Part shown: one piece after another, positions 6,839-19,052 of the stretch | Numbering within the stretch: position 1 is the first letter of the stretch | Layout: each line of letters opens with the position of its first letter | IMG/VR virus record: IMGVR_UViG_3300028840_007026 | Coordinates: 1 to 64,000 of that record | Direction: 5' to 3' (one strand) | Origin: a virus | Length of the DNA stretch: 64,000 nt | Made by a program: the position numbers and the translations under genes | The notes under the pieces: model-generated | What the model was told of the DNA's origin: nothing | Seen by the model: only the letters and a program-made list of their open reading frames with translations | Database searches by the model: none

Positions 6839-7227
6839 TCTTTATACTCCCAACCTTCCATTTTGTCGGCGAGATATTGGCAGTAATGGCATATTTTGAA
6901 CAAATCGAGAAGTTGCTGTCCTTCTCCTTTTACTTTTTCAACTTTCCCCAATCGCTTGAAGTAATGACTCATCTTTCCGATGATTTGTTCTGTATTCATC
7001 CCTTCCATGTGTTCATCCGGCCAGTCACCGTAGAGTTCAACCACATAGTCCCTAATGTGGTCCCTAACTTTTTGGGAGAACTTCATCCATCTCCATTCTT
7101 TGGTTGAAATATTAAGTGACTTTCGTACTTCGTCTTGCCTCTCATCAAAAGTCATACCTTCATCAAAGGTAGAATAACTCATGCCGCCATGAGATTCACC
7201 AGATGCTGCTACGTCTTCTTTCCCCAT
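6835..7227 (-). CDS. Hypothetical protein (130 aa)
   Basis: ORF with RBS, coupled to the downstream gene. Confidence 0.6.
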   Translation of the reverse strand: MGKEDVAASGESHGGMSYSTFDEGMTFDERQDEVRKSLNISTKEWRWMKFSQKVRDHIRDYVVELYGDWPDEHMEGMNTEQIIGKMSHYFKRLGKVEKVKGEGQQLLDLFKICHYCQYLADKMEGWEYKE

Positions 7228-7271
7228 TTTCTTCCCCCTTTTATTTGTTTAGTTTATTATAACCTGTGAAA

Positions 7272-10200
7272 CTATTTTTTAGGAAACTTTAGTTGTTTGA
7301 GAAGTTCCTTAAATCTTTTCATACCAGCGTCATAATAAATTTTATTGTCCGGATTATGCATAGTAGCGGCAGGATGTAAGCAGTAAACAACCCATGCACC
7401 AAAGTATTCATTCCATATTACTTTTCCTGAGATGTTGGTAATCCCCGATTTTTGATTGCGAAAGAATTGTAAACCAGTGTTGCCAAAAGAAAGTATTACA
7501 ATCGGTTTTACTTCTTTTAATTCATTGACAAGCCATAGTTGGGAACATGTTTTTATCTGTTCCGGAGATGGTTTTCTGCTATCTGAAGGGAAGCATTTGA
7601 CTATATTGGAAACGTGGAAAAGTTCTCTTTTATATGATCTCAATGTCTTCCAAATCATGTTTCCACTTCTACCAACAAAACCTTCCCTTTGTTCATCTTC
7701 ATCTTTCCCAGGTGCTTCCCCAATTATTGCGACTGGGTACTTCCCTGGACTTGGTGGAACCGGTGCTTTACATTCATTTCTAAGGTCACATTTTTCACAT
7801 AATCCAAACTTCCTATGAGATGAAAAACTTCTACTTCTCCACAATTTTTTTCTGTTTACAAGTTGTCTGAGAACTTTAGAATCCCCGTTGAGTGCCGGAT
7901 CAAGTTTGTCCAGACGTAAGTTGTTTTCAAACAACCTATATAATTTTTTATACTCTACTTTTGGATTTGTTACAATTCTAAATTTAAAAAGGTCTTTGAT
8001 TGATCTTGTTATCTCAGGATTGTGAGGATCATATGCACCAATTTTATCGAGAAGTCCACCAAACTTGCCACCAATTTTTACTACCTGATTTTTCTTTTTC
8101 TTGCCAAAAAACTTTTTGATATTTCCCTGTGGTTTATCCCCTATTCCTGATGCTGCTTGAATTGCTTTCTTTTCACCAATCCCTTTTACTTCTATGAAAG
8201 GGATATATAAACAATCTTGATTTGCTTCCCAATTGATCGCTTGACTCTTCCCTACTTTGGGTAGCATTATTCTTAGACCGAGTTTATATGCTTCTTCAAT
8301 GATTTCTTTTTTCTTCCCTTCAGCACCAAAGGTAAGGGAAGCACAAACAAACTCTGTGGGGTAGTATAACTTCAACCATGAACACCAGTATGCGAGAATT
8401 GCGTATTCGACAGAGTGACTCTTATTAAAACCATATAGAGCCCACTTCTCTAAACCCGACCAAAACTTCAACGCTTCTGATTTATTGAAATATCCAGTTT
8501 TTCTACAACCACGAACAAACATATCCTTGTACTTCCCGAATTCCTTGACACTACGTTTTTTACCGATAATTTTTCTAACCTTGTCGGCTGTTGAATAAGG
8601 GAGTCCAGCCATTTTTGAAATAACTTGCATCACCTGTTCTTGGTAGACGAGCAGTCCGTAAGTATCTTTGGTGATCTTCTCATATTCTTTATGCATGGGT
8701 TCCCATTTTGCACCATGCTTTCTTCTAATATATTCAGCAGTCATTCCTGAATTGGCTGGTCCTGGTCTGACAAGTGCTACCGCGTCGGATATATGGTTGA
8801 AACTTTCTACTCCCATTTCCATGATAAGTGATGTCATGGCATATGTTCCAAGTTGGAATACTCCAGTAGTTTTACCATCACTTATTTCTTTGAAAACCTT
8901 TTTATCGTTTAAATCTATTTTCTCAAGATTAATTTCTCTACTGTAATTTCTTCTAATTAATTTTTTTGTTTCACTGAGAATAGATAGTAATTTTAAACCA
9001 AGTGCATCCAGTTTCATCAATCCAACATATTCTGTATCTTCCTTTTCCCAATTTACTATCGACAATCCTTCTTGAGTTCTCAGATTACATCGACCGCTTG
9101 TTCCTATAGGTTCACGGGAAATAACAAGTGCTGCTGCATGCTGTCCATATCCTCTTACTTGACCTTCAAGTTGTTTGGCGTAAGTAATTACTTTTGGATA
9201 CTTGGCAGCATATTCAGCGCACTCTGAATAGGCTTCAATCGCGTCATGGATACCAGTATGATCGTCATTGTCTTCAACAAGTTTTGTAAATGCTTCCGTT
9301 TCAGACCAATGAACCCCAAAAGCCCTACCAACATCCTTTAAAACTGCTTTCGCTTTCATACGGTTAAAACTACTCACGGCAGCTACCTTTTCATGTCCAT
9401 AAACAGTTTCTAAATGCTGCCGGACAAGGTGTCGTTTGGTATGTTCAAAATCAATATCTATATCAGGGTAGTCGATCCTATCTTTGTTGATGAAACGAGA
9501 AAAAATCAAATCATGTTCTATCGAATTGACGGAAGTAATTCCAAGCAAATAAGCCATTATACTACCGCCGACAGAGCCGCGACCAGGACCAACGAGAATA
9601 TTATTCTCCTTGCACCAATTAACCGTTTCCCAAACCATTAGAAAGTACCGTTCAAATTTCTTTTCTATGATTAGATCATACTCTTCCTTTAAACGGTTGT
9701 AGTAAAGCTTATCTCTTTTAATATTTTTAGCATGTCCGCATTTCTCAACGTAACCTTTGTTGCAAAGGTCCCAAAGAAAAGCTCTTGCTTTACTCGGATT
9801 TATCGGCACGTTAGGAACCCGAGGTAAGGCGATATCTTGTTTAGCTATGGTAAACCCTGAGCACTTTTCAGCAACTTCCAAAGTATTCCTCAAATACTCC
9901 CTTCTAAACTTGTGTTTGTTATTTTTAAATGTGAGTTCCATTTCTTTTGCTTTTTTCAAATACAACCCTTTGATAGAAAAACGGAACCGATTCGGATCAT
10001 CCATTTTCGCTTTTCTCTGAATAGCGAGTAAAACTTCCTGAGCTTTATGGTGCCACCGTCTAACGTAATGGCAATCGTTAGTAGCAAGTACTTTAATTCC
10101 ATATTTTCTGGCGAGTTTTATTGCTTCTTTATTCCATGAAAATTGCTTTTTGATGTCATGGGGCATTACTTCAACATACAAGTCATTTCCAATAGAATCG

Positions 10201-10664
10201 TACAGGTCACGAAATAACTTTTTCCCTTCTTTGAACACGTTAGCAAAGGAGATGAGACAAGCTGTTGATATACACAATCCTTCGCAATATTTAAGGAGTA
10301 TTTCGAAGGTTACTCGTGGCTTGTAGTAAAAACCCTCTGTATTTGCGAATGTAAGTATTTTACAGAGGTTTCGAAAACCGGTTTCATTCTTTATCCATAC
10401 ACAGGCATGACCGCGAAGTTTATTTCTATCAAGGTTTGGGACGACATATAACTCACATCCCAGGATTGGCTTTACTTCATGCTTTTGGCAAGCCTTTTGA
10501 AACTTTATAAGACCATCCATACAACCATGATCTGTCAAGGCGATTGCTCTTTGCCCTATTTCTGCAGCCCTTGCTGCATACTGGTCTACGGTACCCATAC
10601 CATCCAAAGCTGAGTACTCACTGTGTACATGAAGATGAACGTAGTCTTCTATTCTTTTTTTCAT
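7272..10664 (-). CDS. dnaE: DNA polymerase III alpha (DnaE) fused to a C-terminal family-4 uracil-DNA glycosylase
   Basis: PHP (HLHVHS, TDH, NDCHY), GPGRGSVGGS, PDIDIDF, KLDALGL, YQEQVM, YGFNKSH; C-terminal CEKC, GEAPG..E..FVG, NIVKC, HPA. Confidence 0.95.
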   Translation of the reverse strand: MKKRIEDYVHLHVHSEYSALDGMGTVDQYAARAAEIGQRAIALTDHGCMDGLIKFQKACQKHEVKPILGCELYVVPNLDRNKLRGHACVWIKNETGFRNLCKILTFANTEGFYYKPRVTFEILLKYCEGLCISTACLISFANVFKEGKKLFRDLYDSIGNDLYVEVMPHDIKKQFSWNKEAIKLARKYGIKVLATNDCHYVRRWHHKAQEVLLAIQRKAKMDDPNRFRFSIKGLYLKKAKEMELTFKNNKHKFRREYLRNTLEVAEKCSGFTIAKQDIALPRVPNVPINPSKARAFLWDLCNKGYVEKCGHAKNIKRDKLYYNRLKEEYDLIIEKKFERYFLMVWETVNWCKENNILVGPGRGSVGGSIMAYLLGITSVNSIEHDLIFSRFINKDRIDYPDIDIDFEHTKRHLVRQHLETVYGHEKVAAVSSFNRMKAKAVLKDVGRAFGVHWSETEAFTKLVEDNDDHTGIHDAIEAYSECAEYAAKYPKVITYAKQLEGQVRGYGQHAAALVISREPIGTSGRCNLRTQEGLSIVNWEKEDTEYVGLMKLDALGLKLLSILSETKKLIRRNYSREINLEKIDLNDKKVFKEISDGKTTGVFQLGTYAMTSLIMEMGVESFNHISDAVALVRPGPANSGMTAEYIRRKHGAKWEPMHKEYEKITKDTYGLLVYQEQVMQVISKMAGLPYSTADKVRKIIGKKRSVKEFGKYKDMFVRGCRKTGYFNKSEALKFWSGLEKWALYGFNKSHSVEYAILAYWCSWLKLYYPTEFVCASLTFGAEGKKKEIIEEAYKLGLRIMLPKVGKSQAINWEANQDCLYIPFIEVKGIGEKKAIQAASGIGDKPQGNIKKFFGKKKKNQVVKIGGKFGGLLDKIGAYDPHNPEITRSIKDLFKFRIVTNPKVEYKKLYRLFENNLRLDKLDPALNGDSKVLRQLVNRKKLWRSRSFSSHRKFGLCEKCDLRNECKAPVPPSPGKYPVAIIGEAPGKDEDEQREGFVGRSGNMIWKTLRSYKRELFHVSNIVKCFPSDSRKPSPEQIKTCSQLWLVNELKEVKPIVILSFGNTGLQFFRNQKSGITNISGKVIWNEYFGAWVVYCLHPAATMHNPDNKIYYDAGMKRFKELLKQLKFPKK

Positions 10665-12055
10665 TTTTTCCTCATGAAGTTTCGGATACCCTCTTTGTGA
10701 ATAATTGGTTTTGTTTGGCCGAAAAAATCTTTCATCATTTTGGCAGACTTGGTTATGATTAAAGGATCTGTAGTTCTTCTCGTTTTTCTATCTTGAAAAA
10801 ATCCTGCTTTTTTGCCTTTGCTGAGATTGATAAATTGTTGAGCTTGAAACTTCCTGTCAAAGTGTTTCATTAGCTCGTAATTGTTTTCTATTATACTTCT
10901 CCATTTCTTCTTTGGAAGGTTGCACGCAGCATCAACCCTTTCCGCAAACTCCTTAGGAGTGGCGTCGTGGGGAATCATAATATAATTTTTATTAGGCTGA
11001 AAAATTGGGCTTATCCCCTCTGAGTTGTCGGAGATTCCAAAGTTTCTTCCAATTGGAACTACTCCCATTGCACAGGCATCAATAAATACTCTGTTGAAAT
11101 GTCCACCAGCTTTTGCAAAGTGTAATTGCCAACTCGCGTCAATCAAACATCTCACTTCGCTGAGAAGTTCATCCCTAAAACCTGGAGTAATCCAATGGTG
11201 CCAAATCATTCCATGTTTAAGAGCAAGATCCCATATTCTCATCTTTTTTCGTTCATATTTGCGAGGTAGATCTGGATCATATTTTCTGGAACAGAAATAC
11301 TCTTCCTTACATTTATCTGGACTGGTCATGTAGGCTTGTTCCCTACCTCCACCTGCCATATGAATTTTATCCAGATGCATATAAGGAATGGCTCTCAATA
11401 TTTCTTCGCAGCGTTTATATGCTTTGTAGGTTTGAAGACTAAGGAAGCCCTTAGAACGCTTGTGATAGTTATATTTTCTTTTATACTGAGACAAATCTTT
11501 CCCATTAAGGATCAGCGCGCTCTGGACGTCTCCCAGCTTCATATTGTTATATCCGGCCATGTGAACTGTGGCAATTCCGGAAATGTTTTCTTTAATTTCA
11601 TAAATGTATGGGTAGTTGTTTATGAGATGAGGGTCATGGGAGCAAAGTACATTACAACTATTTGCTTTATATAATTCTATCCAGTCCAGGTTTCCCTTGT
11701 TTTGCTTTTGTCTTGTCGGGACAGGAATCATCCACAGAACCATATCGTACTTGCTGAGAATACGTTTTGCTTTCCGGAGGTTTTTCTCACCTTTGTATGG
11801 AATCTTTCTTTCGAGTGGAAAGTTCCAACCTTTCATTTGATGGGCAGCGTAAAGACAACCCTGATACCAAGGATCTTTTTTATTTCTAATCAACTGGCGG
11901 TCACTGTACTTCCCTTTCATAAACTTATCTTGCCAAGCGAGAAGATAGTAATCAACAGTATGTCCTAATTCCATAAAACCTGCGATAGCATTTTCTACGC
12001 AGCTAACGATCCCGCCGAGGTTGTCTAATGGAAACATGGTAACTGCAATTTTCAT
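10661..12055 (-). CDS. GT-B fold glycosyltransferase, probably DNA-modifying
   Basis: N-terminal GGI....L...GHTV, YKRCEEILRA, FIDACAMGVVPI; located in the replication module. Confidence 0.7.
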   Translation of the reverse strand: MKIAVTMFPLDNLGGIVSCVENAIAGFMELGHTVDYYLLAWQDKFMKGKYSDRQLIRNKKDPWYQGCLYAAHQMKGWNFPLERKIPYKGEKNLRKAKRILSKYDMVLWMIPVPTRQKQNKGNLDWIELYKANSCNVLCSHDPHLINNYPYIYEIKENISGIATVHMAGYNNMKLGDVQSALILNGKDLSQYKRKYNYHKRSKGFLSLQTYKAYKRCEEILRAIPYMHLDKIHMAGGGREQAYMTSPDKCKEEYFCSRKYDPDLPRKYERKKMRIWDLALKHGMIWHHWITPGFRDELLSEVRCLIDASWQLHFAKAGGHFNRVFIDACAMGVVPIGRNFGISDNSEGISPIFQPNKNYIMIPHDATPKEFAERVDAACNLPKKKWRSIIENNYELMKHFDRKFQAQQFINLSKGKKAGFFQDRKTRRTTDPLIITKSAKMMKDFFGQTKPIIHKEGIRNFMRKK

Positions 12056-13704
12056 TTTCTCCCCCTCGTATAGTCCTTTATTCCCTTAGTTTTTATTCCC
12101 GTCATTAATGTGAGTAGTTTATCATACACACGACTTGGGCGGAAACCCCTATATATTAAGCGTTCGCCGCCTTTTTCAAAAGCAACGATCGGCCTATTAT
12201 TTCCAAAATTTCCAGTTCTTAGTAGCAGAATACTTGCTACGATATTTTGAGAACGGGTGAACTTGAATCTACCTTCCGCTACCGTTTCACCAATGGCAGG
12301 ATTTGGATTGAAGTTGTGGAAGTTCTCATTATCAATTGTATCTTTGAGAATATTGAATCCATTTTCCAATGTCCAATTCATTGCAATGGTTATTTGCATC
12401 AACTCTTGCAATTCCTTTTTATTGAAGTTTTCAGTTTCAATAAAAAATGCTTGAGTGTTGATTGGGTCGTAATTCTCATTCGTGTAACCAGCTTCCAAAC
12501 ATCGATCGAATAGTGATGTTCCTTTATTCAATCGGAAGTGAGAAGCCCAAACAATACAGCCTTCGTTATGAACGTCAATCATGGTTTGCAGCATGGTTTC
12601 TATCGTCTCAGCAAAAGGGTAACCAAGAATAATCAATACAAAATTATTCTTTTCCAATTTCTTCCAATTGCTTACTGCTTTTTTCCAATGCTTGAGAACA
12701 TTGGTTTTATTCATATCTTCCAGGACGCCTGGATCTGTGCTTTCTACAGGAAATCTCATTCTCCTGAAACCAACCTTGTACATCAACTCACTGAGTTCAG
12801 GATCGGCAGTAGCATAAACCGGGATACCTTGTGATGCTTTGATTCTTATTTTCTTCAATTCCGGTTCATCAAGAAACAAGTTGAGAACTTTTTTGAAATG
12901 TTTAATCCCCCTTTTCCCTGGACATGGATTGTCGTCTTCTATAATGATATTTTTTACTTTCCATTCATTGACGTAATGCTTAATTTCTTTTATGCATCGT
13001 TCCGGTGTTTTAGTTCTCCATTTTCTACCATGTATCAAATGGCTGCTGCAAAATGAGCAGTTATGTGGACATGCACGGGAAAAGGTGACGTACATTTGTT
13101 TCACGTCCCGTTCATCTAATAGCAATTTACGGGAAGGAAATGGTAGTTGATTCATATCGGGGAAAAAGGTTGTTCGCTGTTCATTTAATTTACTACTGCG
13201 ATCAACTATGGCTTCATGTGGAAAGCCATAAATGAAGTTATAGAGTGCATCTTCTCCTTCTCCAATACAGATGTAATCTGCTTTGGAATGTTCGAAGATA
13301 TGCTGTGGAAAGGTTGTTGCATGTGGACCTCCCATTATCACAATTCTCGTTGGATCTACTTTTTTAATTAAATCGATTACATGGTATGCACCGGTCCAAT
13401 TGGAAGACATTAGAGAAGATACACCGACAAATTGATTATATTTTGGAAGATTCCTTCTAAGCCATCTTTCAATTAGTAAGTCGTCGTATCCCCAGCGAGT
13501 ATATGTGCTCTGACCGGTTTTGAGCTGGTTTGGACGGGTCGTTTTGCTTTTCATTGGTGGATATGAGAAGTCCTTGACACGAGACTCTACGCCTTTTGAC
13601 TCCAGGTATGCTGCTATATACAGGGGACCAGTAGGAAATGGAGCTCTTGACATAAGATAACTTTTGCCTTCGTATGGAGGATATATCAATAATACCGGTT
13701 TCAT
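12052..13704 (-). CDS. Cobalamin-binding (class B) radical SAM enzyme
   Basis: PTGPLYIAAYL, VGVSS, MGGPHAT, GEGE (B12-binding domain); SRACPHNCSFC; IEDDN. Confidence 0.9.
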   Translation of the reverse strand: MKPVLLIYPPYEGKSYLMSRAPFPTGPLYIAAYLESKGVESRVKDFSYPPMKSKTTRPNQLKTGQSTYTRWGYDDLLIERWLRRNLPKYNQFVGVSSLMSSNWTGAYHVIDLIKKVDPTRIVIMGGPHATTFPQHIFEHSKADYICIGEGEDALYNFIYGFPHEAIVDRSSKLNEQRTTFFPDMNQLPFPSRKLLLDERDVKQMYVTFSRACPHNCSFCSSHLIHGRKWRTKTPERCIKEIKHYVNEWKVKNIIIEDDNPCPGKRGIKHFKKVLNLFLDEPELKKIRIKASQGIPVYATADPELSELMYKVGFRRMRFPVESTDPGVLEDMNKTNVLKHWKKAVSNWKKLEKNNFVLIILGYPFAETIETMLQTMIDVHNEGCIVWASHFRLNKGTSLFDRCLEAGYTNENYDPINTQAFFIETENFNKKELQELMQITIAMNWTLENGFNILKDTIDNENFHNFNPNPAIGETVAEGRFKFTRSQNIVASILLLRTGNFGNNRPIVAFEKGGERLIYRGFRPSRVYDKLLTLMTGIKTKGIKDYTRGRK

Positions 13705-13712
13705 ATTTTCTC

Positions 13713-13952
13713 CTATTTTCTTGCCGGAGTTAATCTTTCAAATACTACTCCGTGAGATTCATTATCGCAATCGGGGCATTTAAAAAGAAAAATTTCTTCA
13801 CCATGCCTCGGCCCAATCCCCATGCTCAATACTGTTACAAAATCAAATACCATCCAGGTTTTGCAAGTATGGCAGTAAATTTGTCGAGTACCTTTTGGGC
13901 GTCTTTTTAATTTTCTCATTATTTTTTCAAATCGATCCCTTCGTCTAACCAT
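13713..13952 (-). CDS. Small zinc-ribbon protein
   Basis: CHTC ... CPDC. Confidence 0.6.
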   Translation of the reverse strand: MVRRRDRFEKIMRKLKRRPKGTRQIYCHTCKTWMVFDFVTVLSMGIGPRHGEEIFLFKCPDCDNESHGVVFERLTPARK

Positions 13953-15340
13953 CTTTGTTCATATTCACTTGGAGTATATGTAAAAACAAGGTTATCATTT
14001 TCGTCCGGTCTAACAGGCATTAACTTCCCGTGAAAGTAATTGCGTGGATTGGATGGACTTCTAAGGTTATTCCAAACCCTATTTGCTATTCTACCGTAGT
14101 TGATTCCATGTCTACGGGAAGCAGTCATATCACTAACACAGATATGGTCCTGCCCAAATTGAGGATCGGAAAGATATGTATCTATATCCGGTCTAAATAC
14201 TTCCGTGAACTTCAACTGCTTGAGACGACCGGTAGTATGATATTGTTTTCTCGCTTCTTTCAAAGCAAATGTTAACTGATTGTGAGTCCAGTTGCATAAT
14301 TCTGGATTTTCAGGGTACTCATCAGGCATTCCACAGCAACTCCCGGACATGTTCAACTCCTTAAAATCGGGATCGGAACATGCGAAGAGTACGTCATTTT
14401 TTACGCAAAACTTGTACATTATTTTTACGAATTGCTCTTTAACCAGACGGTTTAATCTCATGTATCCACCGCGTTCACTGGGAGACAATGTTTTGAAGTA
14501 CTTCACTGTATTCTTAGTTCCAATGAGTTCTCCGAGCCACTTATATCGCTTGAGTAGACCTTCATTACTACGGATATCAATGGCAACAAATTCCGTGCTG
14601 ATCGCTTTAATCCCAGCCTCCAGACAGCGGTACAGCATATCTTCCAAGCCATCATCTGTAATGCCAATGATAAACGGCCGAAGTCGAAGGATGGTGTAGT
14701 AACCCATATCACTGAGAAGTTTGATCGCTTTGATTCTTTCACTTGTGACGGGTACACCAATTTCTACCTTTTTTGACATTTCATCGGATGGTGAGATGAT
14801 TGAAACCTGAAAGGCAAAGTTTCTATTATCTGCGTAGCGCTCAAATAAACGCTGGTAGCGTCGGCTGCGGATAGTGTAACCCTTGAATGAGAAGAGTGTC
14901 GGATATTTTGTTTTTGCCAAATGGTGGATCAATTCATAACCCAATCTGTTCGTCTTCTCGAAATTGCAGAATGGGTCAGCCATACCTCCCCAATGGAGAA
15001 GAAATCTTTTTTTGAAAAAGTGCTCGTGGAAAGCACTCATTCTGTAACCCTTCGGCTCATTGTTGATGGCTCGAATAATGGCGGGAATAGGTGCAGCATG
15101 GATCTTCGTACTGAAACTGGAATTGTTTGTTTTTTGCATGTAAGCAAAACAGTACGTACAACCTAATGAGCAATGAGAAAAATGGTCAAATGTCATAGGC
15201 ATTGAGCAGTCCATAAATTCACTTGAAATACGTGGACTGATATAGCTCATGGCATGTTTATCGCTTCGATCGATTTTAATGTTCTTATTTCTTTTTACGA
15301 ATCGAAGACTCTCTTTCCTAATTTCTTCATGGATTTTCAT
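13919..15340 (-). CDS. Radical SAM protein, spore-photoproduct-lyase-like clade
   Basis: CSLGCTYCFA, GGMADPF, ERIKAIKLL...LRLRPFIIG, C-terminal CCG. Confidence 0.8.
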   Translation of the reverse strand: MKIHEEIRKESLRFVKRNKNIKIDRSDKHAMSYISPRISSEFMDCSMPMTFDHFSHCSLGCTYCFAYMQKTNNSSFSTKIHAAPIPAIIRAINNEPKGYRMSAFHEHFFKKRFLLHWGGMADPFCNFEKTNRLGYELIHHLAKTKYPTLFSFKGYTIRSRRYQRLFERYADNRNFAFQVSIISPSDEMSKKVEIGVPVTSERIKAIKLLSDMGYYTILRLRPFIIGITDDGLEDMLYRCLEAGIKAISTEFVAIDIRSNEGLLKRYKWLGELIGTKNTVKYFKTLSPSERGGYMRLNRLVKEQFVKIMYKFCVKNDVLFACSDPDFKELNMSGSCCGMPDEYPENPELCNWTHNQLTFALKEARKQYHTTGRLKQLKFTEVFRPDIDTYLSDPQFGQDHICVSDMTASRRHGINYGRIANRVWNNLRSPSNPRNYFHGKLMPVRPDENDNLVFTYTPSEYEQRWLDEGIDLKK

Positions 15341-15735
15341 AAGTGAATCTTCCTTCCACTCTTGGTTTTTAAAATGAGTTTTTTCTTCTCACGTTTATAG
15401 ATTAAACGACCGGATTCCAATAGTTCAAGGAATAACATAAACACTTCCACATCCCAGGTGTTGTATTCTTTGTACTGACTTATACGGATAAATTTCATCC
15501 ACCGTTGGATCACTTTTTCATTGGGAAATGTGAGTGTCAATGTCTTCTTTTTGAATGCTGTTCTACCAATCTCTCCACCTTTGTATGGTGCAAGGGGAGA
15601 AGGCTTTAAGAGAGCTTGTTCCAATTTTCTCAACTCGAACTTGTCTTTACACTTATCAACTAAGCGAAAGAATTCCTCTATTGTAACATCCTCTCTTGAT
15701 TTATTGCCTAAAAATTTTGTAATATCTTTCGGCAT
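15337..15735 (-). CDS. Hypothetical protein (132 aa) with an N-terminal PIP-like motif
   Basis: ORF coupled to the radical SAM gene; starts MPKDITKFLG. Confidence 0.6.
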   Translation of the reverse strand: MPKDITKFLGNKSREDVTIEEFFRLVDKCKDKFELRKLEQALLKPSPLAPYKGGEIGRTAFKKKTLTLTFPNEKVIQRWMKFIRISQYKEYNTWDVEVFMLFLELLESGRLIYKREKKKLILKTKSGRKIHL

Positions 15736-15738
15736 TAC

Positions 15739-16113
15739 TTACTCCCCCTTTTTCAGACCGAAGTATCGCTCAGGTTTTTCATCTTGGAGACGTAATAGAT
15801 CGATTATTTGCCTTGCATGATATTTACTACAACAATACTTCTTACCAATGCTTTCAACCAGTTTAGGTTCAACCGTTTTGCTTTTCCTTGCAAACTTTAG
15901 AAATGGAACTCTGTTAGACTTTGGAACACAATTGAGTAATTCACTTACGAGATTATTTGGAATCTTTCCCATGACTTCGTTTATTTGAATTGAAAGTAAA
16001 CAGGTTGTAGGGTTGAAACTGAGAATCTTATTTACCATCCACGAATTCTCAATCTCAACCTTTTCCCTGTTTGTGAAAAGTTCCTTTGCCTGTTCAAAGG
16101 GATTCTTACTCAT
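15739..16113 (-). CDS. Clamp-loader A subunit (T4 gp62-like)
   Basis: SWMVNKILS-type motif; size; directly downstream of the AAA+ loader subunit. Confidence 0.55.
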   Translation of the reverse strand: MSKNPFEQAKELFTNREKVEIENSWMVNKILSFNPTTCLLSIQINEVMGKIPNNLVSELLNCVPKSNRVPFLKFARKSKTVEPKLVESIGKKYCCSKYHARQIIDLLRLQDEKPERYFGLKKGE

Positions 16114-16122
16114 CTTTTTATC

Positions 16123-17049
16123 CTATTTAGTGGACCTGAAATCGAGTTCCAATTCCTGAATACTCATGATCTCCAGAATGCAAGCGGTAGCATTAATTTC
16201 CTTGTCGGCAACAAAATTATCCTTGTACATATATTCGGCAATTGCTACCATTACGTCGGAACGAATTCCTTCGTCTTCAATGCTACCGCTGTACTGGTTA
16301 AACAGCCACTTATATATCCGGGTGAAGTCTGTATTATTTATCCACATTTGACGGATTGCAAATACTTTTCCTTCGTTGAGAAAACGGATAAGATCTCCAA
16401 CGACAATCTTATCCAAGAAGTTTTTTCGCAACTTCCCAAAACGTGAAGAACTTTGCAGATTGTTTATAATGCTGCGAATGTCTGGATAATAACGTTCAAC
16501 TATTTCTTTCAAAGTTTTGGTGTTGTATTCGACTTCTTCGTTTCTTAGAATTTTTTTGCAGAAATGGAGAAGTTTAGATTCCGGTAGTGTTTCGAATTGG
16601 AATAATTGACAGCGCGATCTTAATGCGGCAGTAATTTTGTAGATGTTATTGCAGGTGAAAATAAACCTGCAATTTGAATGGTAGGTTTCGATGGTATTTC
16701 TCAAAGCATTTTGAGCATCCGGTGTAAGTCCATCTGCTTCATCAAAGAAGACAATATTGATCTTGTCTGAATCTCTGGGCTTACTTGTTGCAAACTGCTT
16801 CACGGTCGTTTTAATAACGTTTATTCCACGGTCTGAGGAGCTTGCATTAAGCCGAAGACAACCGGCTGCAACCCAGTCTATTAGTATATTGGCAAGTGTT
16901 GTTTTTCCGCTTCCTGGTGGTCCGTGGAAAAGTAAATGGGGGATTTCAAGGTCGTCGATAAAACCTTGCATCGCATCAAAAGTTTCCCTTGGGAGAACCA
17001 TTTGCCTGAGGCGATTTGGTCGATATTTTTCAAACCAGATGTTTGTCAT
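16123..17049 (-). CDS. Clamp-loader AAA+ subunit (RFC small / gp44-like)
   Basis: WFEKYRP, GPPGSGKT, LNASS.RGI, DEAD, AQNALR, SRC motif. Confidence 0.95.
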   Translation of the reverse strand: MTNIWFEKYRPNRLRQMVLPRETFDAMQGFIDDLEIPHLLFHGPPGSGKTTLANILIDWVAAGCLRLNASSSDRGINVIKTTVKQFATSKPRDSDKINIVFFDEADGLTPDAQNALRNTIETYHSNCRFIFTCNNIYKITAALRSRCQLFQFETLPESKLLHFCKKILRNEEVEYNTKTLKEIVERYYPDIRSIINNLQSSSRFGKLRKNFLDKIVVGDLIRFLNEGKVFAIRQMWINNTDFTRIYKWLFNQYSGSIEDEGIRSDVMVAIAEYMYKDNFVADKEINATACILEIMSIQELELDFRSTK

Positions 17050-17051
17050 TT

Positions 17052-17840
17052 TTAGTCACCTTCCTGTTCTTCCATTGGCGTCAGTCCCCAAATTACTTCG
17101 GGTTCCATTACTACGATCGGGTAGCCATCAGCCAAACCAATCACCGGTGGTTCCTCTTCATCTATTTCCACTACCCCGAGGACTTTTGCCAAATTTTCTC
17201 CATTGGTTTTGATGGTGAATTCTGCTTCATCATCGTTTTCAAAATTATCGGATATTTCAATGGAGAACTTATGTTCCGTATTTGTACCAATGGTGAACAC
17301 GATGGAATCTCCAACATCAATGGTCACAACCTTGCTATTGTTTAAACCAATGTAGGAAATCAAATCTTTTGCATCGTCCTTGGTCAGTTCGAATGTCACC
17401 TCCGGAATGGAAGTAAACTGGTCCCAATAATCTTGTTCATCATCTTCATCCATTCTGAGACGAGTAGAAATCATTTCCGGATTGGATGTGAGATAACTGA
17501 GTTTCCGAACAAAATTTTTATTTCCAATAAACAGCCTTTCCTTTTCTTCGCTCATTTCTGTAAAAATCTTTTCAGTGTTGATGGAGCCGAGAAATTTGAT
17601 AACCGTTTCAATATTCCCCAAACCGACGTGAAGGGAAACCCCCTTAGAAGCTACTGAGGCTGTTTTAGTTAATACGATTATGTTGTTTGTTATGTCTACA
17701 ACTTCGGCCAGAGCTACGCCTCCTTCGATGGTCAAAACACATTCGTTTATGGCTCCGCCGAGATAAATCTTTCGCAGGGTTGAAAGTAGTTGGTTTCTTA
17801 CGATGGTGGACTTTTCACGTTTTTTTAATTTCTTTCCCAT
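17052..17840 (-). CDS. Sliding clamp (PCNA/gp45-like)
   Basis: Acidic, 262 aa; INECVLTIEGGVALAEVVDITNNIIV resembles the PCNA N-terminus; adjacent to the loader genes. Confidence 0.7.
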   Translation of the reverse strand: MGKKLKKREKSTIVRNQLLSTLRKIYLGGAINECVLTIEGGVALAEVVDITNNIIVLTKTASVASKGVSLHVGLGNIETVIKFLGSINTEKIFTEMSEEKERLFIGNKNFVRKLSYLTSNPEMISTRLRMDEDDEQDYWDQFTSIPEVTFELTKDDAKDLISYIGLNNSKVVTIDVGDSIVFTIGTNTEHKFSIEISDNFENDDEAEFTIKTNGENLAKVLGVVEIDEEEPPVIGLADGYPIVVMEPEVIWGLTPMEEQEGD

Positions 17841-17869
17841 TGAGTATTTCTCCTTCGAATAAAAGAGTC

Positions 17870-17917
17870 AAAAAAAAGACCACCGACCTCCAAGAATGGA
17901 AAGGAAACCGGTGGTCT
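17870..17917 (-). terminator. Intrinsic terminator
   Basis: AGACCACCG...CGGTGGTCT stem followed by a U-run on the minus strand. Confidence 0.65.
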
Positions 17918-17948
17918 AAATTGTAATACTATTGGCGAACGTTATTGC

Positions 17949-19052
17949 TTAGTCACCGAGTGTCGCAATCACGCCTCCATCGGTTCCGCTGCCGTCCGTG
18001 GTGAGGACAACCGTGCAGCTTTTGCCAATGTTGCGAATGAGATTCCGCATGACCAAACCGTACAATTGGCTCGGCTCCTTTTTCTTCTCCTTCGCAATGG
18101 GTTTGGCGATTTCATGGATGGTGGCACCCTCCCGAATTGCGTCGTAGATTCTCGCCGGAATGGAATCCCGTCGCATACCCTTGGGGTAGTCGTCTCCACC
18201 CTTGTCTTTGCCTTTTCCCTTCTTTCCCTTTTTCTCGTCTTCGTCTTCGTCACCGGATTTCTCTTCCATAGCCTCAACGATTTCCTCAATCTTATCGTCA
18301 AGGTTTTTCTTCGTGACTTTGATTTTCAGGTTATTCTCCTTGACAAAAGCCTTTACTTCTTTAAGGCTCATGTCTTCGAGCTCCTCGGTCAAGGCGTCGG
18401 CGTCGAATTCCTCGGCCTCGTCGTCGGCGTCGTCGTCGTCGTCTTCTTCGGCACCGGATTTCTCTTCCATGGCCTCGACGATTTCTTCGACCTTGTCTTC
18501 CATATTCTTCTTTGTGACCTTGATCCCCAAGTCATTCTCCTTGATGAAAGCTTTCAGCTCCTTGAGGGACATTTCCTCGAGTTCTTCGGTCAATTCGTCG
18601 GCGTCGAATTCCCCGGCGTCGGCCTCGTCGTCGTCTTCTTCTTCTTCTTCTCCATCGGAGCTTTTTTCTTCCATGGCCTCGACGATTTCCTCGATCTTCT
18701 CATCGAGGTTTTTCTTCGTGACCTTGATCCCCAAGTCGTTCTTTTTCACGAAAGCCTTTACTTCCTTGAGGCTCATTTCCTCGAGTTCTTCGGTCAATTC
18801 GTCGGCGTCGAAGTCGTCGGCGTCGTCGTCATCATCATCGGCTTTCTTTTTTGTGTCAGGCACCTGATCCTCATAGAAATCGAGAATTTCATCGGGAATC
18901 TTCCCGAGCTTCCCGTCGTCGTCCATCTTCTCGATGGCGGACATGAAGTCTTCCAGGAGGTCTTCGACGTCAGATTTGATGTTGATCTTCTTTTTGAGAA
19001 GACGGTTCAGTGCCTTGACATGTTTCTTCAGTTCTTTCTTGTCGATCGCCAT
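17949..19052 (-). CDS. Highly acidic repeat protein with helical repeats and a C-terminal HTH-like domain
   Basis: Three copies of DADELTEELEEMSLKEVKAFVKxNxLxIKVTKKNLDEKIEEIVEAMEEKS; C-terminal RRDSIPARIYDAIREGATIHEI; GC3-rich codons. Confidence 0.8.
   Translation of the reverse strand: MAIDKKELKKHVKALNRLLKKKINIKSDVEDLLEDFMSAIEKMDDDGKLGKIPDEILDFYEDQVPDTKKKADDDDDDADDFDADELTEELEEMSLKEVKAFVKKNDLGIKVTKKNLDEKIEEIVEAMEEKSSDGEEEEEDDDEADAGEFDADELTEELEEMSLKELKAFIKENDLGIKVTKKNMEDKVEEIVEAMEEKSGAEEDDDDDADDEAEEFDADALTEELEDMSLKEVKAFVKENNLKIKVTKKNLDDKIEEIVEAMEEKSGDEDEDEKKGKKGKGKDKGGDDYPKGMRRDSIPARIYDAIREGATIHEIAKPIAKEKKKEPSQLYGLVMRNLIRNIGKSCTVVLTTDGSGTDGGVIATLGD
18255..18815. repeat. Three ~200-nt coding tandem repeats
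   Basis: tcggcgtcgaa recurs near 18397, 18598 and 18802. Confidence 0.85.

What the first reader, a model, noticed from the sequence alone, without database searches (positions are those of the whole stretch)
10661..15735. Candidate oxygen-independent DNA hypermodification cluster: GT-B + B12 radical SAM + SPL-like radical SAM
Seen: five tightly coupled genes lie between the clamp loader and DnaE-UDG. Established: spore photoproduct lyase-type radical SAMs do radical chemistry on thymine-derived lesions in DNA, class B B12 radical SAMs usually methylate unactivated carbons, and phage GT-B enzymes glycosylate hydroxymethyl-pyrimidines. Inference: this may be an anaerobic substitute for TET/JBP-type oxidation, with radical activation of a base, glycosylation and C-methylation giving an unknown base. 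No thymidylate-synthase-like hydroxymethylase or TET gene is visible in this window, but one could lie outside it.
Basis: partly seen in the sequence, partly recalled or inferred. Interest (0 to 1): 0.8.

Follow-up and report, generated by a model that had tools for sequence, protein, structure and literature searches.

The report
Radical-SAM phage DNA sugar-modification cluster
An uncultured 81-kb sediment phage carries DNA-type sugar-transferase and radical-SAM genes inside its replication operon but none of the known enzymes that prepare a base for glycosylation, so a photoproduct-lyase-like radical SAM enzyme probably does that step without oxygen.

Summary
In detail: five co-oriented, mostly overlapping genes fill 10661-15735 (minus strand) between the clamp loader and a DnaE-UDG polymerase.

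They fall into two modules.
- **Core pair:** a 132-aa protein plus an SPL-like radical SAM. The pair is kept across this phage family (53 loci).
- **Accessory pair:** a B12 radical SAM plus a GT-B. It is seen in only a few relatives.
- The 79-aa ORF is a poorly conserved filler.

The GT-B belongs to a viral family that sits beside a TET/JBP dioxygenase or a thymidylate-synthase-like gene in 73 of 80 IMG/VR loci. This complete genome has neither of those, and no C5-methylase or ThyX.

Downstream of the SPL-like enzyme, relatives carry TAGT glycosyltransferases, amino-acid:DNA transferases or a kinase resembling 5-hmdU DNA kinase. All of these need a hydroxymethyl-type handle. Five of 10 long family members examined are fused to a TAGT domain.

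Best reading (about 0.55): the SPL-like enzyme makes the acceptor on thymine without O2, the GT-B glycosylates it, and the B12 enzyme tailors the product. No chemistry was tested.

Earlier notes of this scan reached the same reading on at least eight other genomes. My literature searches found no paper describing it.

The parts
15337..15735 (-). 132-aa partner protein of unknown fold, translationally coupled to the SPL-like radical SAM
   Evidence: ORF, with a 4-nt overlap onto the rSAM start. Homologs lie directly upstream of the rSAM in 36 of 53 loci (cluster c4). No Pfam, PHROG or NCBIfam hit. AF2 model: pLDDT 86.5, pTM 0.46. No PDB relative: Foldseek best E 0.49; VIA wide best Z 3.4. Atlas best score 0.79.
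13919..15340 (-). SPL-like radical SAM enzyme (473 aa), the proposed entry enzyme
   Evidence: Radical_SAM hit: 29.4 bits against a cut-off of 29.5, 29.8 bits. NCBIfam PA0069 and Rv2578c families match, but far below their cut-offs. CX3CX2C motif at C57/C61/C64. C45 and C335/C336 are conserved in 86-95% of 82 divergent relatives. AF2 model pLDDT 90.6. SPL is the best PDB fold match. 488 homologs; 189 representatives at E<=1e-30.
13713..13952 (-). 79-aa ORF with two CxxC pairs (zinc-ribbon-like); a variable filler gene
   Evidence: ORF, sequence. No family hit apart from a chance-level S27e match. One positional homolog (L147, 37% over 67 aa, E 2e-9). Other relatives carry unrelated small genes in this gap. 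No Rfam element in 7000-18000.
12052..13704 (-). B12-binding (class B) radical SAM enzyme (550 aa), the proposed tailoring enzyme
   Evidence: PF02310 E 2.1e-14 and PF04055 E 1.2e-15. 23 NCBIfam class-B families match, all far below cut-off. CX3CX2C motif at C212/C216/C219 is invariant. The protein belongs to a tight clade of about 45 proteins at >=40% identity, after which identity drops to <=30%. All 4 IMG/VR loci lie next to the SPL-like rSAM and a GT, as do most of the 19 metagenome loci.
10661..12055 (-). GT-B (GT4-like) glycosyltransferase of a viral family linked to TET and TS genes (464 aa)
   Evidence: 57 homologs, 26 with PF00534. Atlas structural neighbours are GT4 clusters at TM 0.62-0.81, and the feature search also lists T4 AGT. 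237 IMG/VR stretches encode relatives. Of the best 80 loci, 55 have a TET/JBP gene and 18 a TS-like gene close by.
7272..10664 (-). DnaE-type polymerase with a C-terminal UDG domain (downstream flank, same operon)
   Evidence: Pfam PHP, DNA_pol3_alpha, finger and UDG domains. 4-nt overlap with the GT stop.
15739..17049 (-). Clamp loader small and large subunits (upstream flank, same operon)
   Evidence: phrog_225 for 15739-16113. AAA, DNA_pol3_delta2 and Gp44_lid for 16123-17049.

Best explanation
This is a phage DNA hypermodification cluster built into the replisome operon.

Proposed pathway:
1. The SPL-like radical SAM enzyme, probably helped by the co-translated 132-aa protein, acts on thymine in phage DNA. 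A 5'-deoxyadenosyl radical abstracts a hydrogen from the C5-methyl group, which is the carbon that SPL chemistry handles.
2. The allylic radical is oxidised and takes up an oxygen from water. This may involve the extra conserved cysteines (C45, C335, C336), either as an auxiliary cluster or as a covalent catch.
3. The result is a 5-hydroxymethyl-type handle made without O2. It fills the role that TET/JBP dioxygenases or thymidylate-synthase-like hydroxymethylases fill in other phages.
4. The GT-B enzyme then puts a sugar on that hydroxyl.
5. The B12 radical SAM enzyme tailors the product, most likely by methylating an unactivated carbon of the sugar or of the hydroxymethyl carbon.

What is shown and what is inferred:
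- Shown here: gene identities, folds, gene order, co-occurrence, fusions, and the absence of the known entry enzymes.
- Inferred: every chemical step, the target base, and the order of the GT and B12 steps.
For: 1. **The GT-B is a DNA-base GT by association.** Of the 80 best IMG/VR loci of its family, 55 carry a Tet_JBP gene and 18 a Thymidylat_synt-like gene within a few genes. One representative of each neighbour cluster was checked by Pfam, at E 1.8e-24 and 2.6e-21. TET was confirmed in 5 of 5 records. Partner type is clustered on a quick GT tree: 7 changes against a shuffled mean of 23.5.

2. **The usual partners are absent.**
- G000 is a complete genome (DTR, CheckV 100%). It has no PF00303, PF12851, PF00145 or PF02511 match at E<=1.
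- Across rSAM-bearing IMG/VR records, PF12851 is found in 0 of 37 and PF00145 over cut-off in 0 of 37.
- PF00303 is found in 4 of 36 records, and in 0 of the 6 that are >=90% complete. G001 (100% complete) also has none.

3. **The SPL-like rSAM is the constant gene and its downstream neighbours vary.** They are TAGT PF20691 (25 loci, E 2e-15), ADDT PF18724 (6 loci, E 8e-11), and a P-loop kinase like M6 gp54, the 5-hmdU DNA kinase (24% identity, pairwise E 2e-11; phrog_800 E 1.5e-15). The window's GT-B and a weak T4-BGT-like protein also occur. Of 42 distinct loci, 30 carry at least one such gene in the fetched flank. A 31st carries one across a contig end.

4. **Fusions.** Of 10 long representatives of the rSAM family examined, 5 carry a TAGT domain on the same polypeptide. 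One of those also has a P-loop kinase. A sixth carries an FkbM methyltransferase.

5. **Fold.** SPL is the best solved match.

6. **The B12 rSAM clade is tied to this context.**
- IMG/VR: 4 of 4 loci lie beside the SPL-like rSAM and a GT.
- Metagenome loci: 14 of 16 with upstream DNA have the SPL-like rSAM, and 10 of 12 with downstream DNA have a GT.
- GTs occur without the B12 enzyme in more than 25 loci. This makes the B12 enzyme a tailoring step, not the entry step.

7. **Precedents read in passages.** An SPL-like rSAM (M6 gp53) acts on modified thymine in DNA (PMC8989533). Phage T-dioxygenases make 5hmU after replication and are linked with GTs, P-loop kinases and AADTs (PMC13229309).
Against: - No chemistry was tested, and the whole case rests on association.
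- I know of no characterised radical SAM enzyme that hydroxylates a DNA base (recalled, not searched exhaustively).
- The only characterised phage SPL-like enzyme, M6 gp53, is a tailoring isomerase and not an entry enzyme.
- 4 of 36 rSAM-bearing records do have a TS-like match. In L131/L138 a weak TS-like protein directly follows the rSAM.
- 11 of 42 distinct loci show no recognisable acceptor-using enzyme. Three of those are too short to judge.
- The kinase's match to Pfam 5-hmdU DNA kinase is below cut-off: 19.8 against 27 bits.
- The window GT itself has no Pfam hit.
- The genome has poly-Thr virion proteins and other transferases, noted by earlier readers. Those could be another GT substrate.
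- Most absences were scored on incomplete viral contigs.
- The 132-aa partner has no recognisable fold, so its role is a guess.
Confidence: 0.55

Rival explanations
1. The SPL-like radical SAM is a tailoring enzyme that acts after another step, as M6 gp53 isomerises N-alpha-glycinyl-thymine. The acceptor would then be made by an unrecognised protein (the 132-aa protein or another ORF), or the GTs would act directly on an unmodified base.
For: The only characterised phage relative is a tailoring isomerase (PMC8989533). The window enzyme shares 22% identity over 225 aa with it. Fusions with TAGT show a shared pathway but not the order of steps. Several neighbours remain unannotated.
Against: ADDT, the enzyme that makes gp53's substrate, is present in only 6 of the loci and is absent from this genome. 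The rSAM is the one constant gene while every known acceptor-using enzyme varies around it. No known entry enzyme is present in 8 of 8 near-complete genomes. The 132-aa protein has no enzyme-like fold match.
Confidence: 0.17
2. The B12 radical SAM is the O2-independent hydroxylase, as BchE replaces the oxygen-dependent cyclase. It sits directly upstream of the GT-B, where TET sits in other phages. The SPL-like enzyme would then do a separate, conserved job.
For: The B12 gene overlaps the GT start by 4 nt, in the position TET holds in most TET loci. BchE is among its NCBIfam hits at E 3.3e-18, far below cut-off. The B12 clade always occurs with a GT.
Against: The B12 gene is absent from most loci where TAGT, ADDT, kinase or GT-B follow the SPL-like rSAM: it is present in 4 of 53 loci. 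L099 and L116 have the GT-B without it. The B12 gene is never seen without the SPL-like rSAM where upstream DNA exists, apart from 2 of 16 short contigs. Most characterised class B enzymes are methylases (recalled).
Confidence: 0.1
3. The cluster does not modify DNA. The SPL-like enzyme repairs radical or UV lesions during replication, and the GT-B and B12 enzyme modify virion proteins (the poly-Thr tags) or host surface molecules.
For: SPL itself is a repair enzyme, and the gene lies among replication and repair genes such as RecA, an Mre11/Rad50-like pair and gp32. Earlier readers noted poly-Thr tags on virion proteins and other transferases in this genome. The window GT has no direct DNA-GT family hit.
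Against: The GT family is tied to TET or TS in 73 of 80 loci. The rSAM's neighbours are DNA-specific families (TAGT, ADDT, a kinase like 5-hmdU DNA kinase). rSAM-TAGT fusions exist. The genes sit in the early replication operon, not the late virion module.
Confidence: 0.06

Closest known systems
Phage 5mYOX (TET/JBP) + glycosyltransferase hypermodification clusters. Sources: PMC8256090, seen only in a search listing and abstract start; bioRxiv 10.1101/2023.12.21.572611, passages.
   Same: The window's GT-B family is the one found beside TET/JBP genes (55 of 80 loci) or ThyS-like genes (18 of 80). The logic is the same: a base is given a hydroxyl handle and then glycosylated, and the genes are clustered.
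   Different: No dioxygenase, ThyS-like gene or C5-methylase is present in the complete genome. A radical SAM pair takes their place. The preprint's main text contains no occurrence of the word 'radical'.
Phage thymine dioxygenase pathways, ParB-dependent and ParB-independent (PMC13229309, passages)
   Same: The handle is made on thymine after replication. [quoted passage not shown] No C5-methylase is needed. A small helper protein is encoded next to the entry enzyme in one subclass.
   Different: The entry enzyme here is a radical SAM, not an Fe(II)/2-oxoglutarate dioxygenase, so it would not need O2. The 132-aa helper shows no ParB match by Pfam or by fold search.
Pseudomonas phage M6 thymidine hypermodification cluster, gp51-gp54 (PMC8989533, passages; locus)
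   Same: It contains an SPL-like radical SAM of similar length (gp53, 480 aa) that acts on DNA. Next to it lies a 5-hmdU DNA kinase (gp54), whose homolog follows the window-type rSAM in L001, L003, L004, L088 and G001.
   Different: M6 makes 5-hmdU with a TS-like enzyme (gp58), and gp53 is a late isomerase. The window enzyme is only 22% identical to gp53 over 225 aa. The window genome has no ADDT or TS-like gene, and no PLP-enzyme gene was seen among the proteins I scanned.
Spore photoproduct lyase (PDB 4fhc, 4fhf and related entries)
   Same: It is the best solved fold match, at Z 18.0 over 275 residues. Both are radical SAM enzymes, and SPL works at the thymine C5-methyl carbon in DNA (established knowledge).
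   Different: Identity is 11-13%. There is no sequence-level match to PDB chains. The window enzyme has an extra C-terminal region of about 150 residues with a conserved Cys-Cys pair. The gene context points to modification, not repair.
Class B (cobalamin-dependent) radical SAM enzymes such as Fom3, GenK, Mmp10 and BchE (names recalled; Mmp10, TsrM and CysS structures appear as hits of the other enzyme)
   Same: The 550-aa protein has the N-terminal B12-binding domain followed by a radical SAM domain with CX3CX2C.
   Different: It reaches none of the curated NCBIfam cut-offs: best 78.7 bits against 360. It forms a phage-only clade tied to DNA GTs. Its substrate is unknown.

Membership tests
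Spore photoproduct lyase (SplB) proper | Radical SAM CX3CX2C cluster motif | tested here: met
   C57/C61/C64 are invariant in A2. PF04055 scores 29.4 bits and 29.8 bits, against a cut-off of 29.5.
Spore photoproduct lyase (SplB) proper | SPL fold as the nearest solved structure | tested here: met
   The Foldseek top 6 hits are all SPL, at E 2e-6 to 9e-6. VIA Z is 17.9-18.0, against 15.6 for the next family.
Spore photoproduct lyase (SplB) proper | Sequence-level membership in a curated SPL or related equivalog | tested here: not met
   NCBIfam gives only PA0069 (44.7 bits against 360) and Rv2578c (38.1 against 430). No PDB sequence match to SPL, whether by single sequence or by profile.
Spore photoproduct lyase (SplB) proper | Catalytic H-donor Cys and Tyr relay at the SPL positions; lyase activity on spore photoproduct | not tested
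   The tools gave no residue-level structural alignment. Activity needs a bench assay.
M6 gp53-type glycinyl-thymine isomerase | Close homology to gp53, and a context with an amino-acid:DNA transferase and a PLP decarboxylase | tested here: not met
   22% identity over 225 aa, pairwise E 3e-5. No ADDT or PLP enzyme among the window cluster genes. ADDT occurs in only 6 of the related loci.
Class B (B12-binding) radical SAM enzymes | N-terminal cobalamin-binding domain plus radical SAM domain with CX3CX2C | tested here: met
   PF02310 scores 53.8 bits (cut-off 32.1) and PF04055 58.5 bits (cut-off 29.5). C212/C216/C219 are invariant.
Class B (B12-binding) radical SAM enzymes | Assignment to a characterised subfamily (methylase, BchE, PhpK and so on) | tested here: not met
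   All 23 NCBIfam hits are far below their cut-offs. Identity to cellular relatives is <=30%.
Phage GT-B DNA glycosyltransferases linked to 5mYOX or ThyS | GT-B / GT4-type fold | tested here: met
   The Atlas model matches GT4 clusters at TM 0.62-0.81. 26 of 57 homologs carry PF00534. The window protein itself has no Pfam hit at E<=0.01.
Phage GT-B DNA glycosyltransferases linked to 5mYOX or ThyS | Encoded beside an enzyme that makes a 5-hydroxymethyl pyrimidine (TET/JBP or TS-like) | tested here: not met
   This holds for 73 of 80 family loci but not for the window. No PF12851 or PF00303 match in the complete genome.
Phage GT-B DNA glycosyltransferases linked to 5mYOX or ThyS | Transfers sugar to a base in DNA | not testable with these tools
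   Needs an enzyme assay or nucleoside LC-MS.
ParB-dependent entry-enzyme pairs (helper = ParB homolog) | The helper protein has a ParB N-terminal domain | tested here: inconclusive
   No Pfam hit for the 132-aa protein. No ParB among the fold matches. The model's pTM is only 0.46.

The most novel reading that the evidence does not exclude
The SPL-like radical SAM enzymes of this family, with their small partner, are a third and oxygen-independent way to put a hydroxymethyl-type handle on thymine in DNA. The two known ways are TS-like hydroxymethylases acting on nucleotides and TET/JBP dioxygenases acting on DNA. In this phage the handle is glycosylated by the GT-B and then C-methylated by a dedicated B12 radical SAM, giving a base that has not been described. 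An even bolder variant is not excluded: the conserved Cys45 and Cys335-Cys336 could deliver sulfur or form a covalent enzyme-DNA intermediate, so that the handle is not an alcohol at all.
Probability: 0.45. Interest if true: 0.9.

Novelty: new variant of a known kind. Interest (0 to 1): 0.8.

Why it matters
All known routes to glycosylated or amino-acid-decorated pyrimidines in phage DNA start from one of two enzyme types. One is a thymidylate-synthase-like hydroxymethylase. The other is an O2-dependent TET/JBP dioxygenase.

A radical SAM entry enzyme would matter in several ways:
- It would explain how phages of anoxic habitats build such bases.
- It would add a new reaction type to radical SAM enzymology, namely functionalisation of a DNA base methyl group.
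- It would offer an oxygen-free tool for writing 5hmU-type marks.

The family is large: 189 representatives at E<=1e-30. It comes with a varied set of downstream enzymes, including TAGT, GT-B, ADDT, a kinase, a SPASM rSAM, a B12 rSAM, APS kinase and an FkbM methylase. It therefore points to many undescribed DNA bases and to new ways of evading restriction.

The prediction can be tested directly with two or three recombinant proteins.

Tried and rejected
**Searches that found nothing**
- DNA-level search of 10000-16200 against 50,697 phage records: no match.
- Single-protein scan of IMG/VR with the GT: no pattern match. It was superseded by the alignment scan.
- PDB sequence searches with the GT, the rSAM and the rSAM profile gave only chance-level hits.
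- Rfam scan of 7000-18000, to see whether the gap holding the 79-aa ORF hides a ribozyme like those reported elsewhere in this genome: nothing at E<=0.1.

**The 132-aa partner**
- No family, fold or Atlas relative.
- The ParB-helper idea taken from earlier notes could be neither confirmed nor excluded.

**Readings considered and dropped**
- The five genes as one co-inherited unit. Relatives L001-L004 keep the rSAM pair but lack the B12 rSAM and the GT-B.
- The SPL-like enzyme as an M6 gp53 ortholog. Identity is low and the context is different.
- The B12 enzyme as the general entry enzyme. It is too rare among the loci.

**Weak or uncertain results**
- The Pfam hit of the relatives' kinase to 5-hmdU DNA kinase is below cut-off. 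I rest instead on the pairwise match to M6 gp54 and on phrog_800.
- L116's 'GT-B' sits on a very long branch in the quick tree and should not be counted as a sure member.
- The careful tree did not finish, so only the quick tree is reported.

**Sequencing runs**
- No RNA holder is listed.
- Two runs hold the whole stretch (sediment metagenome, seawater metagenome). Both may be the source of this DNA.

**Literature**
- Searches found no paper that gives an SPL-like radical SAM the entry role.
- The library lacks most subscription journals, and supplements were closed. The co-occurrence tables of bioRxiv 2023.12.21.572611 and PMC13229309 could list radical SAM neighbours that I could not see.

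Full report
**What is in the sequence**

The stretch 10661-15735 holds five minus-strand ORFs of 132, 473, 79, 550 and 464 aa. Four of the five junctions, counting the one into the polymerase gene, are overlaps of 4 or 34 nt. The fifth is an 8-nt gap.

Upstream lie the two clamp-loader subunits (15739-16113, phrog_225; 16123-17049, AAA/Gp44_lid). Downstream lies a DnaE-type polymerase with a C-terminal UDG domain (7272-10664).

The wider operon is a T4-style replisome. It includes gp32-like SSB, RecA, an Mre11/Rad50-like pair, a DnaB-like helicase, a Toprim primase and an SF2 helicase. The record is a complete 81,355-bp virus genome with direct terminal repeats and a CheckV completeness of 100%.

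**Identities of the five proteins**

- **550 aa.** This is a class B radical SAM enzyme, with B12-binding and Radical_SAM domains both above cut-off. No curated subfamily is reached.
- **473 aa.** This is a radical SAM enzyme with CX3CX2C at C57/C61/C64.
  - Its AlphaFold model is confident, at pLDDT 90.6 and pTM 0.92.
  - The six best PDB matches are all spore photoproduct lyase, at Foldseek E about 2e-6.
  - By VIA the match scores Z 18.0 with 275 residues aligned, against 15.6 for the next family.
  - About 150 C-terminal residues lie outside the SPL match.
  - Across 82 divergent relatives (median identity 29%), C45 (86%) and the pair C335/C336 (95%) are conserved in addition to the cluster triad.
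- **464 aa.** This protein has no Pfam hit of its own. It is a GT-B all the same: 26 of 57 homologs carry PF00534, and the Atlas model aligns to GT4 clusters at TM 0.62-0.81.
- **132 aa.** This protein has no family or fold relative.
- **79 aa.** This ORF has two CxxC pairs and one positional homolog. Other relatives carry unrelated small genes in that gap.

**The cluster is two modules**

Four related IMG/VR loci (L001-L004) keep the 132-aa protein and the SPL-like enzyme between the clamp loader and DnaE-UDG, at 61-68% identity. They lack the B12 enzyme and the GT-B.

The full five-part order recurs in L006/L149 and in L151. The series B12 rSAM, GT-B, DnaE recurs in L159. A 79,760-bp contig filed under a Thermoplasmatales MAG carries the three enzymes as consecutive locus tags.

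**What the GT-B family does elsewhere**

An alignment-based scan found 237 IMG/VR stretches that encode relatives, and I examined the best 80.

I clustered the neighbouring genes and checked one representative per cluster by Pfam. This showed a Tet_JBP gene in 55 loci and a thymidylate-synthase-like gene in 18, nearly always within two genes of the GT.

Of the 7 remaining loci, one is the window's own relative and two are cut at the GT.

A quick tree groups the GTs by partner type (quick method only). The family therefore belongs to the phage GT-B enzymes that a preprint describes as acting on 5-hydroxymethyl pyrimidines made by 5mYOX or ThyS enzymes (10.1101/2023.12.21.572611, passages).

**The usual partner is missing**

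| Family | This genome (G000) | Other rSAM-bearing records |
|---|---|---|
| PF00303 (TS-like) | none at E<=1 | 4 of 36; 0 of 6 that are >=90% complete; G001, complete, none |
| PF12851 (TET/JBP) | none at E<=1 | 0 of 37; positive control 5 of 5 |
| PF00145 (C5-methylase) | none at E<=1 | 0 of 37 over cut-off |
| PF02511 (ThyX) | none at E<=1 | not tested |

With no C5-methylase present, the only methylpyrimidine on offer is thymine.

**What surrounds the SPL-like enzyme**

The family is large: 488 homologs, and 1669 / 751 / 189 representatives at E<=1e-3 / 1e-10 / 1e-30.

In 52 IMG/VR loci plus the window, the enzyme is constant. The 132-aa partner is present in 36 of these 53 loci. The genes between the enzyme and the polymerase vary:

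- TAGT, the TET-associated glycosyltransferase: 25 loci, E 2e-15.
- A SPASM radical SAM: 19 loci.
- ADDT, the amino-acid:DNA transferase: 6 loci, E 8e-11.
- A P-loop kinase.
- APS kinase, an FkbM methylase, DUF2284, and weak T4-BGT-like and PIG-L-like proteins.

The kinase matches M6 gp54 at pairwise E 2e-11 and phrog_800. M6 gp54 is the 5-hmdU DNA kinase, and in M6 it lies next to the SPL-like gp53.

Of 42 distinct loci, 30 carry at least one enzyme that uses such an acceptor. A 31st has one across a contig end.

Five of 10 long family representatives examined are fused to a TAGT domain. One of these also carries a P-loop kinase domain.

**The B12 enzyme**

Its clade is small, about 45 proteins at >=40% identity. 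After that, identity falls to <=30% in cellular proteins.

All 4 IMG/VR loci lie beside the SPL-like enzyme and a GT. Among the 19 metagenome loci, the SPL-like gene is upstream in 14 of 16 that have upstream DNA. A GT is adjacent in 10 of 12 that have downstream DNA: three GT-B and seven TAGT.

GTs are common without the B12 enzyme. This fits a tailoring role and not the entry step.

**Mechanism proposed**

1. The SPL-like enzyme abstracts a hydrogen from the thymine methyl group in DNA.
2. The radical is oxidised and captured by water, which gives a hydroxymethyl-type handle.
3. The GT-B glycosylates that handle.
4. The B12 enzyme methylates a carbon of the sugar or of the handle.

Only the gene-level facts are shown. 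All of the chemistry is inferred.

Two precedents read in passages bear on it. M6 gp53 is an SPL-like radical SAM that acts on modified thymine in DNA (PMC8989533). Phage T-dioxygenases make 5hmU after replication and have the same downstream partners (PMC13229309).

**Against the reading**

- There is no biochemical test.
- The characterised relative is a late isomerase.
- A few rSAM-bearing records have TS-like genes.
- About a quarter of the loci show no recognisable acceptor-using enzyme.
- Many contigs are incomplete.
- The genome also has candidate protein-glycosylation features noted by others.

**Prior notes and literature**

Earlier AI notes of this scan describe the same kind of cassette on at least eight other genomes. 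I treat these as leads, not as evidence.

One lead from them, a ParB-like helper, was tested here with an inconclusive result.

Seven literature searches found no paper that gives an SPL-like radical SAM this role. Supplements and most subscription journals were out of reach.

**Verdict**

This is a new variant of a known kind of system, and it can be tested directly at the bench.

Noticed in passing
relatives of window 13919-15340: P0101, P0112, P0122; L114-L116, L125, L126, L134, L136: Several SPL-like rSAM genes in relatives carry intein or Hint domains (PF14890, PF07591), or appear as split or very long ORFs of 779-1121 aa. This pattern is usual for essential, highly conserved phage genes.
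   Followed up: no
L101, L105-L107, L109, L114, L115, L135: In several relatives the DnaE polymerase is encoded as two ORFs of about 410 and 460 aa, sometimes with a small gene between them. This could be a split polymerase or an intervening element.
   Followed up: no
L094, L095, L096, L098, L108, about 10998-11603: An APS kinase gene (PF01583, E 1.6e-57) sits with the TAGT and a SPASM radical SAM between the SPL-like rSAM and DnaE. This hints at a sulfated modification.
   Followed up: no
P0275: An 888-aa protein fuses a B12-binding radical SAM to GT4-type glycosyltransferase domains. This is a fusion of the two enzyme classes that are neighbours in the window.
   Followed up: no
P0018, P0093, P0190: A 79,760-bp contig deposited under 'Thermoplasmatales archaeon SG8-52-4' carries the GT, B12 rSAM and SPL-like rSAM as consecutive locus tags. 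It matches this phage family in size, so it is probably a phage contig binned into an archaeal MAG.
   Followed up: partly
L131 and L138, 8314-9726: A 470-aa protein directly after the SPL-like rSAM has a weak thymidylate-synthase-like match (E 4e-4, below cut-off). It is an exception that could bear on the entry-enzyme idea.
   Followed up: partly
L042 and L082: Here the GT homolog is longer (482-485 aa). Small reverse-strand ORFs lie where the TET gene sits in sister loci. This could be a lost or disrupted TET gene.
   Followed up: no
L018, 10001-17849: In an unrelated phage the same GT family, paired with a TS-like gene, sits directly upstream of a DnaE-type polymerase and near a clamp loader. 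The genomic slot is the same as in the window, but the entry enzyme is the classical one.
   Followed up: partly
L085 10561-11049 and 13103-13648; L154, L155, L164 gaps: HD-domain-like and phage-metallopeptidase-like small genes recur in the variable region next to the SPL-like rSAM in relatives.
   Followed up: no
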